A stretch of 64,000 bases of DNA, from the sequence record MZ681930.1; one strand, 5' to 3'. Under the pieces are notes generated by a model. It worked only from the letters and a program-made list of their open reading frames with translations, made no database searches and was not told where the DNA came from. A program made the translations under genes and the position numbers. Positions 11,518 to 58,310 of this stretch are shown piece by piece. Position 1 is the first letter of the stretch, and each line of letters starts with the position of its first letter. This DNA is from Enterobacteria phage phiC600P9.

Positions 11518-12120
11518 TTATAGATTAAATCCTTCAAAGTCAAGAGTATAGATAGTGTATGTTGAATGCTTTTTATACTCATATCTATCCGCAATTCTAA
11601 ATACACTTCCAGCTGGTATCATTACTTCTTGTTCATCTGAAACTAATTCCATATTACGATAACGATGGCTATCTGGAAACTTAAAACTCGGACTATATTC
11701 TTTACAACGTAGAGCTTTTATAGCATACTCCTGGAAATTAAATACCATAGGAGCTTTGAATTCAAAAATAACTTGTGTATTGTATTCTAATCCAGAAGCA
11801 AAATGTAGAGCTATATTTTTATCATATGAAGCTGATACTACTTTATCAAATGTAATAATATCAATTCCTTGATTTAACGCCTGCTTAGTCTCAACTGGAA
11901 CACCTCTCCAAAGAGGTTTATCGTTTGGAACCAAACGATATTTGATTATTTCATTTAACCAAGAATGATCGTCTGGCTTATTAGTAATACAATGAATTAA
12001 AAGTTCAATTTCAGATAAATTAAATCCTTCAGAAAGTAATTCTTCACGAATAGAAGCACGCACCGATGCATCCATTGATTTGATTTTAAAATCTTTTAAT
12101 TGCATTGCTGAATATTTCAT
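11518..12120 (-). CDS. modA: ADP-ribosyltransferase ModA
   Basis: 200-aa ORF, same length and position as T4 ModA; paralogous to adjacent ORF. Confidence 0.65.
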   Translation of the reverse strand: MKYSAMQLKDFKIKSMDASVRASIREELLSEGFNLSEIELLIHCITNKPDDHSWLNEIIKYRLVPNDKPLWRGVPVETKQALNQGIDIITFDKVVSASYDKNIALHFASGLEYNTQVIFEFKAPMVFNFQEYAIKALRCKEYSPSFKFPDSHRYRNMELVSDEQEVMIPAGSVFRIADRYEYKKHSTYTIYTLDFEGFNL

Positions 12121-12752
12121 TCAACTACCTCAATATCATACACTTTAAATGTTCCAAATGAATCGTGTAATTTTTCTTTTGAAATAGAAGTTATTTTATA
12201 CTTTCCAATTGGAATCATCCATTCTTGTTCACGCACAATCATCATTAAGTTATCAGTACGTTCTGAATCTAATCCATCAGTATCTTCATATGTATACTTA
12301 AACTCAGTATTAGGAGAAGAAAGTATAATATCGCTGATATGGTCAGAATAATTAAAAGCTTTATCAGTTTTTAAGCGAAATATTATTTCAGTGAAATACT
12401 CAACATAAGAAAAACCACATGCTGTGTGCAAACTAGTAGTAAATGAATCTACTCTATTCGTTGAAAACACTTCTCCAACTTGTAAATCTTTAATGAGTTC
12501 TTTTGTCGATTTTGATATACCACGATATAGCTGATAAGGTGATTTAGTTAAATGCTTTTTAATGATTTTATTCAACTGCCGATGAAGAGCTTCATTCTTT
12601 TTGGCTTCCATACATTGCCAAAGAACTGATTGTTCAAAGTCAGTAAATTTTTCACAGACTTTTTTATACATATCATATTGAAAATCAACGCTTTCAGCTT
12701 TTATAGATAACTGTTCAACATCTGCAAGATTAATAATCATGATAGCCTCCAT
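12117..12752 (-). CDS. modB: ADP-ribosyltransferase ModB
   Basis: 211-aa ORF start/stop-coupled to modA. Confidence 0.65.
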   Translation of the reverse strand: MEAIMIINLADVEQLSIKAESVDFQYDMYKKVCEKFTDFEQSVLWQCMEAKKNEALHRQLNKIIKKHLTKSPYQLYRGISKSTKELIKDLQVGEVFSTNRVDSFTTSLHTACGFSYVEYFTEIIFRLKTDKAFNYSDHISDIILSSPNTEFKYTYEDTDGLDSERTDNLMMIVREQEWMIPIGKYKITSISKEKLHDSFGTFKVYDIEVVE

Positions 12753-17414: not shown

Positions 17415-17579
17415 TTACTCTTCTTTTTCTTTAGATTCCTCTTTTTTCTTTTTAGGAATCTGTTCAGGACCTTTATTTACTACAGCGCCTGATGTTGTTC
17501 CAGTGGAGATATTTTCAGGATTACCACCTGAATCTCCAGCTACCATATCTTCTTTGATAAATTCTTTATATGTTTTCAT
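17415..17579 (-). CDS. small protein with internal-protein-like capsid targeting sequence (hand-called)
   Basis: 54-aa ORF MKTYKEFIKEDMVAGDSGG...KKKKEESKEKEE; N-terminus resembles the T4 IP targeting sequence MKTYQEFIAE; AGAGG RBS. Confidence 0.45.
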   Translation of the reverse strand: MKTYKEFIKEDMVAGDSGGNPENISTGTTSGAVVNKGPEQIPKKKKEESKEKEE

Positions 17580-17591
17580 ATTAGCCTCTAA

Positions 17592-17885
17592 TTATTCACC
17601 TACCACTTCAGCGATGATATTTTTATTATTGAAGTTTTTATCACAATACAGAACGTAATTATACTGCATTACACCACCAGACTTAAGTTGTTTTTGTACT
17701 TCAGCTTTCATTTCAGGGCGATCACGCTCAACGATATTCATAATATCTGCTTCAATCTGAGTTTCAACTTCAGTCTGATCTGCAGTCATAGACCACTCAC
17801 ACAAATCTTTATCATAACCCGCCATAGCAGGCTGAGCAGCACAAGAAGCCAAAGCAAAAATTGCAGCAAAAACAAATTTTTTCAT
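17592..17885 (-). CDS. secreted/lipoprotein-like small protein
   Basis: 97-aa ORF with signal peptide MKKFVFAAIFALASCAAQPAMA. Confidence 0.55.
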   Translation of the reverse strand: MKKFVFAAIFALASCAAQPAMAGYDKDLCEWSMTADQTEVETQIEADIMNIVERDRPEMKAEVQKQLKSGGVMQYNYVLYCDKNFNNKNIIAEVVGE

Positions 17886-56011: not shown

Positions 56012-56200
56012 TTAATCCTTAGTTAAATTTTCTAAATATGTTTTTAAATCATTTTCAGCTTTATCGATAGATTTTACTAATTCGTAATATGTTTCGGCAT
56101 CTCCATATTCAGAAGATATTTCAAAAGACAAATCCTTTTCTAAACTAATAATTTCACCAACTAAAAATAATATTTCGTTCTTTTGTTCGCGAGTAATCAT
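56012..56200 (-). CDS. small hypothetical protein
   Basis: 62-aa ORF. Confidence 0.45.
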   Translation of the reverse strand: MITREQKNEILFLVGEIISLEKDLSFEISSEYGDAETYYELVKSIDKAENDLKTYLENLTKD

Positions 56201-56382
56201 AAGGAATTTATATAATCAATAAGTTCTTGCTCTTTATCGTCAAAATCTTTACACAGTTCTTCGTATTCGTCAGTATTAAAAGGACCGCATTCATTACAAA
56301 CTTTTTCCAATTCACTATTTTTATCCATAACTTCGTGGATAAGAGAAAAGAGTCTGTCTTTTTGTTCTTTGCTTAGGCTCAT
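56197..56382 (-). CDS. small hypothetical protein
   Basis: 61-aa ORF. Confidence 0.45.
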   Translation of the reverse strand: MSLSKEQKDRLFSLIHEVMDKNSELEKVCNECGPFNTDEYEELCKDFDDKEQELIDYINSL

Positions 56383-56552
56383 ATATTAATTTCCAGAAGT
56401 TTTAAAATAATTCGCTTTTGCTTAAATATTTCCATAGTTAAATGATCAGTATCTTTTTGACCAATTCCAATGGCAAAACCTTTATTAACAGCGAGTTCAA
56501 TTAAATTATCAAGTTCACGTAACACTTCATATTGTAACTCAGAACTATTCAT
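56379..56552 (-). CDS. small hypothetical protein (hand-called)
   Basis: 57-aa ORF MNSSELQYEVLRELDNLIELAVNKG...; ATGA overlaps on both sides. Confidence 0.4.
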   Translation of the reverse strand: MNSSELQYEVLRELDNLIELAVNKGFAIGIGQKDTDHLTMEIFKQKRIILKLLEINI

Positions 56553-56761
56553 TTCGGTTTACCTTCTTTAACGAAATCTGGATAAGGATAAAATCCCGAA
56601 TAAAATCCTTCACCTTTATGATTGATGCATCCTTTATTAGAACAATAGCACCAATAATCGAAATCACAAGCCATTTCATCGTTGCATAAAGCAAAAACAA
56701 CCGGCCATTTACACTTTTCACAGTGGGCATTTTTAAGAATACTAGTTTGGCTCATAACCAT
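56549..56761 (-). CDS. small Cys-rich (zinc-binding-like) protein
   Basis: 70-aa ORF with CEKC...CYC...C. Confidence 0.45.
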   Translation of the reverse strand: MVMSQTSILKNAHCEKCKWPVVFALCNDEMACDFDYWCYCSNKGCINHKGEGFYSGFYPYPDFVKEGKPK

Positions 56762-56979
56762 GTCACCTTTAAGCAGTATTCTTCTACATGCTGTTTACGA
56801 CCTTTCTTATCAATAAAGGTATATTCAACGAATGTTCCAATGTAGTCTTTATCTACGTCATGTGGACTATTAATTGGGCATTTAGTACGGCAAATGCGTT
56901 CCCATTGACGAATAATTACTGCCTTATTCTTTGGGTCATATGGATGTGGATAATGTATATTCATAATAATGGTTCCCAA
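56752..56979 (-). CDS. small hypothetical protein
   Basis: 75-aa ORF. Confidence 0.45.
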   Translation of the reverse strand: MGTIIMNIHYPHPYDPKNKAVIIRQWERICRTKCPINSPHDVDKDYIGTFVEYTFIDKKGRKQHVEEYCLKVTWL

Positions 56980-57428
56980 TCAACAATCACAATTTCTAAT
57001 TTAGAGGAATATGTATCTAAAATCCCCTCAATAATATCCCAGTTCCCTTTACCTATGCCTGCACCAATCCTAGGCATATAGATTGTAGGTTTAATCAGTT
57101 TATTTTCACCAAACTCATTTAATTCTAACATACAATTCATTAAAGCGGAATACTCAAAATTTGGCCCTGGTTGAAATTGAGTATAAAGGTTGAAGCAATA
57201 CGCTTTATGAGTCCTAAAGTATTTTTCATAGACTGAGTAAGAACCGAGTTTAGTTACATCACCCCATTCAGTCTGTAATTTATCAGCTTCCAAAATTTTA
57301 GGGAAAGCTTTGGTTAATTGACCCGCTACTCCTGAACCCATAGTATGAAAACAATTGCATCCATGCGCAATATTTTTACCTTCAGCGAAAAGGGCGACAA
57401 TATCGCCCTTGATATATTTTACAATCAT
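56961..57428 (-). CDS. macro-domain protein (predicted ADP-ribose binding/processing)
   Basis: 155-aa ORF with macro-domain-like motifs (HGCNCFHTMGSGVAGQL, then RIGAGIGKG). Confidence 0.55.
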   Translation of the reverse strand: MIVKYIKGDIVALFAEGKNIAHGCNCFHTMGSGVAGQLTKAFPKILEADKLQTEWGDVTKLGSYSVYEKYFRTHKAYCFNLYTQFQPGPNFEYSALMNCMLELNEFGENKLIKPTIYMPRIGAGIGKGNWDIIEGILDTYSSKLEIVIVDWEPLL

Positions 57429-57772
57429 CTAGTACTCAATCCTCGATTATAAGAATCTACCAAACGGTCAACCATTGAATGACAAGCGGCTTTATCTTTC
57501 TCCTCCGCAACTGAACATTCTAAAGTATTCCACTTTTTAGCATATCGTTTTAATAATGTATCGTTTTTGTATCTGCTTGATTTATCTCTTTCTCCGTCTT
57601 TATATGCATATATTAATTTCTGCGCAAATTCAGCTTGGCATGCTTTATTTTTCCCACAATAATCTGCCGCAGTGCGATTTACATATTCTCTAATTTCAGT
57701 ATATGATGTATCTGCTGACGCAGAAGCAGAAAATGAAATTAATCCTATACATAAAACCAAAATTTTAGTCAT
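57425..57772 (-). CDS. vs: Vs-like protein (T4 valyl-tRNA synthetase modifier position), secreted
   Basis: 115-aa ORF, T4 Vs length, with N-terminal signal peptide. Confidence 0.5.
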   Translation of the reverse strand: MTKILVLCIGLISFSASASADTSYTEIREYVNRTAADYCGKNKACQAEFAQKLIYAYKDGERDKSSRYKNDTLLKRYAKKWNTLECSVAEEKDKAACHSMVDRLVDSYNRGLSTR

Positions 57773-58310
57773 TTACTATTTCCAAAAGTTTATTATTTTT
57801 AAGGTAATTAGCCTTTTCTAGGACTTCAGAAGCATATTTAGAACCAGCTTTAACATTCCATCCCGAATTATAAGAGGATATTGCTTTTCTTATATCGCCC
57901 TTATGTATATTTAACCAATAAGAAAGTTCAATGTACGCCCAGGAAGCTGAATTGGATCGTTTATTCAACATTCTTTTTATTTCAGCATCGGTCATATTAT
58001 AACCAAGTTCCTTAACTCTCGCTCGCATAGTAGGCAAATAATTTTGGAACATTCCGTAGGCGTGATGCTTTGGTTTAGATTTTAAATTAACTCCGGCAGA
58101 GCTTTCTTGCCATAAAATAGCAGCCATTATATGACCTAATCCGCTTTTGTGGATATTTTTATGTGTTTTATATTTTCCATCCTTAGAAAATTGTTCCCCG
58201 AATTGATACGCGTAACGCATGTTATCGAGTTGGACATTACTGAAAGTATGCTCGGAGCTATGTGCCATCATAGAAATGGCCAATAGACCAGCGAGTAGTG
58301 CTTTTCTCAT
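57765..58310 (-). CDS. secreted lytic-transglycosylase-like protein (SLT domain)
   Basis: 181-aa ORF with signal peptide and SLT motifs (ILWQESSAG, YGMFQ, SYNSG). Confidence 0.55.
   Translation of the reverse strand: MRKALLAGLLAISMMAHSSEHTFSNVQLDNMRYAYQFGEQFSKDGKYKTHKNIHKSGLGHIMAAILWQESSAGVNLKSKPKHHAYGMFQNYLPTMRARVKELGYNMTDAEIKRMLNKRSNSASWAYIELSYWLNIHKGDIRKAISSYNSGWNVKAGSKYASEVLEKANYLKNNKLLEIVND

What the first reader, a model, noticed from the sequence alone, without database searches (positions are those of the whole stretch)
56961..57428. Macro-domain protein in the tk-vs early cluster
The 155-aa ORF carries macro-domain-like motifs, predicting ADP-ribose binding or hydrolysis. The same window encodes the ModA/ModB ADP-ribosyltransferases (11518..12752). 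A phage macro domain could reverse ADP-ribosylation, either tuning the phage's own modifications or countering host ADP-ribosylating defenses such as DarT-type DNA modification.
Basis: partly seen in the sequence, partly recalled or inferred. Interest (0 to 1): 0.6.

Follow-up and report, generated by a model that had tools for sequence, protein, structure and literature searches.

The report
Phage T4 Tk.4 (AdfM) macrodomain

Summary
The 155-aa ORF at 56961..57428 (minus strand) is real. Its protein is 100% identical to phage T4 Tk.4. The window is a Tequatrovirus, 100% identical over the 1.5 kb tested to phiC600P9.

A bioRxiv preprint of November 2025 (HIDEN-SEQ) found tk.4 to be the only T4 gene that becomes conditionally essential on a DarTG2 host. 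A clean knockout sensitised T4, and the gene was renamed adfM. Its other idea, reversal of ModA/ModB marks, is unlikely.

What this analysis adds:
- Tk.4 has an invariant Gln (Q84, 91/91 homologs) where DarG, TARG1 and PhiKZ AdfM have the catalytic Lys. This matches SCO6735, whose Gln85 is essential for thymidine-ADP-ribose DNA hydrolysis.
- Tk.4 lacks DarG's DarT-binding domain.
- tk.4 occurs as divergent alleles swapped in place.
- Distant homologs often sit beside NAD+-salvage genes.

Enzymatic activity of T4 Tk.4 itself has not been shown.

The parts
56961..57428 (-). tk.4 / adfM coding sequence (155 aa plus stop), a single macrodomain
   Evidence: ORF. The protein is 100% identical to T4 ORF 60.5 / Tk.4. 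462 of 468 nt match the T4 reference and all 6 differences are synonymous. Pfam Macro scores above cutoff. Model pLDDT 96.
57351..57365 (-). Codons H22-G23-C24-N25-C26, the 'HGCNC' motif after strand 2. N25 aligns with PhiKZ AdfM N23.
   Evidence: H22, G23, C24, N25 and C26 are at least 90% conserved in 91 homologs. N25 aligns with N23 of PhiKZ AdfM, and the N23A mutant has reduced DNA de-ADP-ribosylation (PMC13309987). SCO6735 has IAHVCND and BT1257 has ITHICND at this position.
57330..57341 (-). Codons M30-G31-S32-G33, the first glycine loop (GxG) of the ADP-ribose cleft
   Evidence: G33 is invariant and M30 nearly invariant. The GxG loop after the second strand is the conserved ADP-ribose-binding motif of macrodomains (PMC9503650).
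57177..57191 (-). Codons N80-L81-Y82-T83-Q84. Q84 occupies the position of the catalytic Lys of TARG1 and DarG and of the essential Gln85 of SCO6735.
   Evidence: Y82 and Q84 are invariant in 91/91 homologs, and N80 and T83 are at least 90% conserved. Q84 aligns to TARG1 K84 and to the Lys of DarG 'FPTKK' and PhiKZ 'FPTKD'. hhalign places NLYTQ on SCO6735 NMIGQ (N81-Q85) at 98.5% probability. SCO6735 Q85A is inactive (PMC9411070).
57039..57074 (-). Codons P119-R-I-G-A-G-I-G-K-G-N-W130, the second glycine-rich loop. G126 replaces TARG1 D125.
   Evidence: P119, I121, G122 and G124 are invariant; G127, G128 and W130 are at least 90% conserved by the tool's numbering. The stretch aligns to TARG1 PRIGCGLDRLQW and SCO6735 PRIGCGLAGGTW.
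57425..57428 (-). ATGA overlap: the vs stop codon overlaps the tk.4 start codon
   Evidence: Read directly from the sequence and the ORF table. It suggests translational coupling (inference).
56961..56964 (-). ATGA overlap: the tk.4 stop codon overlaps the tk.3 start codon
   Evidence: Sequence. The tk.3 start follows the annotation of phiC600P9 and T4.

Best explanation
The ORF encodes T4 Tk.4, now named AdfM (anti-DarT factor, macrodomain). It is a free-standing macrodomain of the TARG1/DarG/SCO6735 ('ALC1-like') class. When the host DarT2 toxin attaches ADP-ribose to thymidine in single-stranded phage DNA and blocks replication, AdfM most likely binds the ADP-ribose in its glycine-lined cleft and hydrolyses the ribose-thymine bond, restoring normal DNA. 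It would thus act as an orphan antitoxin that needs no contact with the toxin. Its active site is of the Gln type (Q84, as Gln85 in SCO6735), not the Lys type of DarG, TARG1 and PhiKZ AdfM. Shown: identity with T4 Tk.4, the macro fold, and the published genetic requirement for tk.4 on DarTG2 hosts. Inferred: that protection is catalytic, that the substrate is thymidine-linked ADP-ribose on DNA, and that Q84 is the key catalytic residue.
Against: No enzymatic assay of T4 Tk.4 was found. The preprint itself says only that catalysis 'seems likely'. Tk.4 lacks the catalytic Lys of DarG/TARG1 and the Asp of TARG1. It also lacks the five-residue longer loop carrying K89 that helps SCO6735 act on DNA. 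Catalytically dead SCO6735, DarG and TARG1 can still inhibit DarT, so protection without hydrolysis is conceivable. The genetic evidence is a preprint, and I could read the text but not the figures.
Confidence: 0.8

Rival explanations
1. Tk.4 protects against DarTG2 without catalysis, either by binding and inhibiting DarT2 directly or by binding ADP-ribosylated DNA.
For: Inactive SCO6735 Q85A, DarG K80A and TARG1 K84A all inhibit DarT in vitro, SCO6735 most strongly (PMC9411070). Tk.4 lacks the canonical Lys. tk.4 occurs as alleles only about 58% identical in otherwise near-identical genomes. Such divergence is easier to explain by protein-protein arms races than by an unchanging DNA substrate.
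Against: The cleft residues (N25, G33, Q84, the G122-G128 loop) are invariant or nearly so across homologs down to about 35% identity, as expected for an enzyme. Tk.4 has no counterpart of DarG's C-terminal DarT-binding domain. A stoichiometric inhibitor would be expected to show surface rather than cleft conservation.
Confidence: 0.08
2. Tk.4 mainly reverses or tunes the phage's own ADP-ribosylation by Alt, ModA and ModB (protein arginine marks or ModB RNAylation).
For: ModA and ModB are encoded in the same window. Pairing of a transferase with an eraser is common in ADP-ribosylation systems (PMC9503650).
Against: Alt and ModA modify arginine, for example Arg265 of the RNA polymerase alpha subunit (PMC8120803). 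To my knowledge, characterised members of this macrodomain class act on acidic-residue esters, thymidine-DNA or small ADP-ribose derivatives, not on arginine N-glycosides. tk.4 is about 44 kb from modA/modB and is not co-located with them. [quoted passage not shown]
Confidence: 0.04
3. Tk.4 processes soluble ADP-ribose derivatives (ADP-ribose 1''-phosphate, O-acetyl-ADP-ribose or immune signalling products), as the database label 'phosphatase' implies, possibly in connection with NAD+ metabolism.
Against: The only phenotype reported for T4 tk.4 is on DarTG2. No Nampt or Prs homolog lies within 5 kb of tk.4 in the T4-like loci. Poa1p has Ser where Tk.4 has the invariant Gln. Anti-defence genes tend to cluster, so adjacency to salvage genes need not mean a shared pathway. 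This activity could still exist alongside the DNA activity.
Confidence: 0.08

Closest known systems
T4 Tk.4 / AdfM (NP_049723.1; bioRxiv 10.1101/2025.11.20.689424)
   Same: The protein sequence is identical, with the same neighbours (vs upstream, tk.3 downstream) and the same length.
   Different: Six synonymous nucleotide differences. This phage carries two extra small ORFs between tk.2 and tk.3 and lacks adfA/61.2.
SCO6735 of Streptomyces coelicolor (PDB 5e3b) and its close relative BT1257 (2fg1/2afc)
   Different: Only about 21-29% identical. Tk.4 lacks the five-residue longer mobile loop with K89 that aids DNA activity in SCO6735. SCO6735 is a cellular, DNA-damage-regulated protein, not a phage counter-defence.
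DarG antitoxin macrodomain (Thermus aquaticus 5m31/5m3e, M. tuberculosis 5m3i, Thermosipho 7omu)
   Different: DarG uses a catalytic Lys (K80) where Tk.4 has Gln. DarG has a second, DarT-binding domain and is encoded next to darT. Tk.4 reaches 30 bits against a cutoff of 250 on the NCBIfam DarG model.
PhiKZ gp104, also named AdfM (Cell Rep 2026, PMC13309987)
   Same: A phage-encoded stand-alone macrodomain that counters DarTG2, with the same conserved Asn (N23 = N25).
   Different: Barely related in sequence: BLASTP aligns only 23 residues at E 0.005. PhiKZ AdfM is DarG-like, scoring 133 bits on the PADLOC DarG model against 36 for Tk.4, and keeps the catalytic Lys. It is imported into the phage nucleus, and its activity was shown in vitro, whereas that of Tk.4 has not been.
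Human TARG1 / OARD1 (4j5r)
   Same: Top Foldseek hit (E 7e-10), with the same loop lengths and shared GxG and PRIGxG motifs.
   Different: The TARG1 catalytic pair K84/D125 is Q84/G126 in Tk.4.
Yeast Poa1p (ADP-ribose 1''-phosphate phosphatase, 6lfq)
   Different: Poa1p has Ser at the Q84 position. Sequence similarity is mostly limited to the N-terminal 100 residues. No phosphatase activity has been reported for Tk.4.

Membership tests
Macrodomain superfamily (Pfam PF01661) | Profile score above the curated gathering cutoff | tested here: met
   27.7 bits against a cutoff of 22, covering 112 of 118 profile positions.
Macrodomain superfamily (Pfam PF01661) | Three-layer alpha/beta/alpha fold with a central mixed sheet | tested here: met
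Macrodomain superfamily (Pfam PF01661) | Glycine-rich loops lining the ADP-ribose cleft | tested here: met
   M30-G-S-G33 and I121-G-A-G-I-G-K-G128. G33, G122 and G124 are invariant in 91 homologs.
Macrodomain superfamily (Pfam PF01661) | Binds ADP-ribose | not testable with these tools
   Needs a binding assay or a co-crystal structure.
ALC1-like / TARG1-like macrodomain class | Closest structural neighbours are TARG1, DarG, SCO6735/BT1257 and Poa1p rather than MacroD or viral Mac1 | tested here: met
AdfM of T4 (anti-DarT factor, macrodomain) | Orthology with T4 tk.4 | tested here: met
   100% aa identity and conserved synteny.
AdfM of T4 (anti-DarT factor, macrodomain) | Required for growth on DarTG2 hosts | not testable with these tools
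   Reported for T4 in a preprint. Not tested for this phage.
DarG antitoxin (NCBIfam NF048014 equivalog) | Full-length profile score above cutoff | tested here: not met
   30.3 bits against a cutoff of 250.
DarG antitoxin (NCBIfam NF048014 equivalog) | C-terminal DarT-binding domain | tested here: not met
   The protein is 155 aa and matches only profile positions 2-146 of 338 and 2-145 of 329.
DarG antitoxin (NCBIfam NF048014 equivalog) | Catalytic lysine (K80 in T. aquaticus) | tested here: not met
   Gln84 occupies that column in Tk.4 and in all 91 homologs.
DarG antitoxin (NCBIfam NF048014 equivalog) | Encoded next to a darT toxin gene | tested here: not met
   The neighbours are vs and tk.3 (DUF7202). 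No transferase gene is adjacent.
SCO6735-type (Gln) thymidine-ADP-ribose DNA hydrolases | Gln at the position of TARG1 K84 / DarG K80 | tested here: met
   hhalign aligns Q84 with Gln85. MAFFT with SCO6735 and BT1257 makes this column invariant.
SCO6735-type (Gln) thymidine-ADP-ribose DNA hydrolases | Extended mobile loop with K89/K94 after the Gln | tested here: not met
   Tk.4 has a five-residue gap there and no Lys (QFQPGPN against QHGMKTGSKGAP).
SCO6735-type (Gln) thymidine-ADP-ribose DNA hydrolases | Hydrolysis of thymidine-linked ADP-ribose on ssDNA | not testable with these tools
   Needs an in vitro assay. None has been published for Tk.4.
Poa1p-type ADP-ribose 1''-phosphate phosphatase | Residues probed by mutation in the Poa1p structures (H23, S30, F152) | tested here: inconclusive
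   H22 and T29 of Tk.4 align with H23 and S30 (my mapping; mutant names). The F152 region aligns only weakly, and Poa1p has Ser at the Q84 column.

The most novel reading that the evidence does not exclude
T4 AdfM is a Gln-type hydrolase of the SCO6735/BT1257 lineage and is mechanistically and evolutionarily distinct from the Lys-type, DarG-derived AdfM of PhiKZ. If so, phages recruited macrodomains against DarT2 at least twice. Like SCO6735, Tk.4 might also act on protein-linked ADP-ribose. The same Gln-type family is repeatedly placed beside phage NAD+-salvage genes, and tk.4 is exchanged as divergent alleles in T-even genomes. Both hint at a wider or second role in the fight over NAD+ and ADP-ribose.
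Probability: 0.5. Interest if true: 0.4.

Novelty: already known. Interest (0 to 1): 0.22.

Why it matters
DarTG systems stop phages by ADP-ribosylating their DNA. Knowing which phage genes undo this helps explain host range and matters for choosing therapeutic phages. For this ORF the central point, a macrodomain that defeats DarTG2, is already published for the identical T4 protein, so the finding mainly confirms a correct prediction. What is still worth testing is the chemistry: an invariant Gln instead of the classical Lys, with a short loop unlike SCO6735. That would extend a newly recognised catalytic variant of this enzyme class to a very large phage family, since homologs occur in about 2,800 phage records.

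Tried and rejected
- Pairwise BLASTP of Tk.4 against SCO6735, and MAFFT with BT1257 in the first reference alignment, placed the catalytic loop inconsistently. I relied instead on the profile alignments and on a second MAFFT run that included SCO6735. These three agree.
- A C-terminal fragment query to bring up the SCO6735 alignment returned only the last 28 residues.
- The promoter and terminator scan gave counts no higher than in shuffled sequence, so it supports no claim about timing of expression.
- A search for T4 AdfA (61.2) in the window found nothing. The gene is absent here.
- No paper links NARP2, macrodomains and phages.
- I considered whether Tk.4 might counter the mRNA ADP-ribosyltransferase CmdTAC and rejected it. 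CmdTAC defends strongly against T4, presumably wild type carrying tk.4 (PMC11618068).
- The antisense ORFs on the plus strand (56788..57081 and 57345..57452) lie wholly or largely within the conserved minus-strand gene and were not pursued.

Full report
**1. Observation**

The ORF exists as described. It runs from an ATG at 57428 to a TGA ending at 56961 on the minus strand and encodes 155 aa. Its start codon overlaps the stop codon of the upstream gene vs (ATGA at 57425..57428). Its stop codon overlaps the start of the downstream gene tk.3 (ATGA at 56961..56964).

The window is a Tequatrovirus. The 1.5 kb around the ORF is 100% identical to phage phiC600P9, and 662 phage records match it. The protein is 100% identical to T4 ORF 60.5, which is Tk.4. 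The DNA differs from the T4 reference at 6 of 468 positions, all synonymous.

The neighbours are regB, vs.1, vs, tk.4, tk.3, two extra small ORFs, tk.2, tk.1 and tk.

**2. What it is**

The protein passes the curated Pfam Macro threshold (27.7 bits against 22). A profile of 91 homologs hits solved macrodomains at these E-values:
- BT1257: 7e-20
- TARG1: 3e-16
- SCO6735: 1.2e-15
- M. tuberculosis DarG: 1.4e-14

Public records already say "macro domain protein" (phiC600P9) or "phosphatase; contains A1pp phosphatase motif" (T4 RefSeq; PHROG 335).

**3. What is already known**

- A bioRxiv preprint of 20 November 2025 (10.1101/2025.11.20.689424) screened a T4 transposon library on a DarTG2 host. 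It found tk.4 as the single significant hit, showed that a clean knockout sensitises T4 to DarTG2, and renamed the gene adfM. The authors state that enzymatic removal of ADP-ribose from DNA "seems likely"; no assay is reported.
- Earlier work had shown that T4 lacking adfA and adfN remains resistant to DarTG2, which predicted a further factor (PMC11825919).
- Independently, PhiKZ gp104 was also named AdfM. It was shown in vitro to remove DarT2-made ADP-ribose from an oligonucleotide, and N23A reduced that activity (PMC13309987).
- I found no other paper on Tk.4 function.

**4. Mechanism and what this analysis adds**

*The catalytic position is Gln, not Lys.* In 91 homologs down to about 35% identity, the invariant residues are G33, A35, D49, Y82, Q84, P119, I121, G122 and G124. 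H22, G23, C24, N25, C26, N80 and T83 are at least 90% conserved. Aligned with reference enzymes, Q84 falls in the column of TARG1 K84, the Lys in DarG "FPTKK" and the Lys in PhiKZ AdfM "FPTKD". TARG1 D125 corresponds to G126.

*This matches SCO6735.* SCO6735 and its close relative BT1257 carry "NMIGQ" at this position. A profile-sequence alignment places Tk.4 N80-Q84 on SCO6735 N81-Q85 at 98.5% probability, and a MAFFT alignment makes the column invariant. SCO6735 hydrolyses thymidine-linked ADP-ribose on DNA and also acts on protein substrates. Its Q85A mutant is inactive, and a water-mediated mechanism has been proposed for it (PMC9411070).

*Tk.4 is a hybrid of the two types.* It shares the Gln-type site, but it lacks the five-residue longer loop with K89 that aids DNA activity in SCO6735. 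Its loop length is that of DarG and TARG1.

*The two proteins named AdfM are only distant relatives.*
- BLASTP between T4 AdfM and PhiKZ AdfM aligns only 23 residues (E 0.005).
- PhiKZ AdfM scores 133 bits on the PADLOC DarG model, against 36 bits for Tk.4.
- Tk.4 has no counterpart of DarG's toxin-binding domain and falls far below the NCBIfam DarG cutoff (30 against 250 bits).

My best reading is a free-standing hydrolase that erases DarT2 marks from single-stranded phage DNA using a Gln-centred site. I put the confidence at about 0.8. The anti-DarTG2 role itself is firmer than the catalytic mechanism.

**5. Rival explanations**

- *Protection by binding rather than hydrolysis* is conceivable, because inactive SCO6735, DarG and TARG1 still inhibit DarT. 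However, the strict conservation of cleft residues argues for catalysis.
- *Reversal of the phage's own Alt/ModA/ModB marks* is unlikely. [quoted passage not shown]
- *A small-molecule role* (ADP-ribose 1''-phosphate or O-acetyl-ADP-ribose) is what the "phosphatase" label implies. It cannot be excluded as a side activity: Poa1p is a close structural neighbour and shares the H-x-C-N-C motif. No data support it for T4.
- *Countering CmdTAC* is excluded. CmdTAC, an mRNA ADP-ribosyltransferase, still defends strongly against T4, presumably wild type carrying tk.4.

**6. Family context**

tblastn finds homologs in 2,846 phage records from many genera. I fetched 79 viral-contig loci and searched their flanks:
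- About 30 keep the regB-vs.1-vs-macro-tk arrangement.
- Eight have a Nampt homolog within 5 kb, and in five of them it is directly adjacent.
- Two GenBank phages, Acinetobacter Aci02-2 and Vibrio Gary, place the macrodomain directly beside the Nampt and Prs-like genes. Both keep the active-site motifs.

In one contig (L040) the flanking genes are 97-100% identical to the window, but tk.4 is only 58% identical. Nucleotide identity collapses almost exactly across the ORF, which indicates in-place exchange of divergent alleles.

**7. Verdict**

Novelty: already known. Interest is low.

The remaining open points are the enzymology, the Gln-type site, the apparent independent origins of the two AdfM proteins, and the link to NAD+-salvage genes in other phages.

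Noticed in passing
window 17415..17885: The anti-DarT gene adfA (T4 61.2, 208 aa) is missing from this phage. Gene 61.1 (17415..17579) is followed after 12 nt by sp (17592..17885), and T4 61.2 gives no tblastn hit in the window. By contrast dmd, tk.3, tk.4 and vs are 100% identical to T4.
   Followed up: partly
window 56379..56761: Two small ORFs lie between tk.2 and tk.3 that T4 does not have there: 56379..56552 (57 aa, no family match) and 56549..56761 (70 aa, Pfam Phage_zn_bind PF23895, E 2.6e-29).
   Followed up: partly
L040 5001..5465, compared with window 56935..57385: tk.4 has undergone in-place allele replacement. In a metagenomic T4-like contig, regB, vs.1, vs and tk are 97-100% identical to the window, but the macrodomain is 58% identical. 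Nucleotide identity falls to 19-40 matches per 50 nt almost exactly across the tk.4 ORF. Phage records fall into allele classes of about 100%, about 84% and about 58% identity.
   Followed up: partly
L003 405..3974; L004 2632..5662; also L044, L059, L060, L062, L063, L064, L072, L079: Tk.4-family macrodomains with the same Gln-type motifs sit directly beside Nampt and Prs-like NAD+-salvage genes in unrelated phages: an Acinetobacter Saclayvirus, a Vibrio Thalassavirus and 8 of 79 viral contigs. No paper linking NARP2 and macrodomains was found.
   Followed up: partly
window 57390..57410: A perfect 8-bp inverted repeat (AAGGGCGA ... TCGCCCTT, 5-nt loop) lies within codons 7-13 of tk.4, 18-38 nt downstream of its start codon. 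The terminator scan flagged it on the plus strand, but it could equally form a hairpin in the tk.4 mRNA.
   Followed up: no
window 57425..57772 and 57765..58310: The upstream gene vs (valyl-tRNA synthetase modifier) has an N-terminal hydrophobic stretch that looks like a signal peptide (my reading of the sequence). The HIDEN-SEQ preprint reports vs as the T4 gene most strongly depleted in minimal medium. vs.1 carries an SLT lytic transglycosylase domain (Pfam E 4.8e-5) and also begins with a hydrophobic stretch.
   Followed up: no
window 56130..56335: The tk.1/tk.2 region is a second sharply divergent patch between the window and contig L040, at 22-31 matches per 50 nt between well-conserved flanks. 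Window tk.2 is 88.5% identical to T4 tk.2, whereas the neighbouring genes are 100% identical.
   Followed up: no
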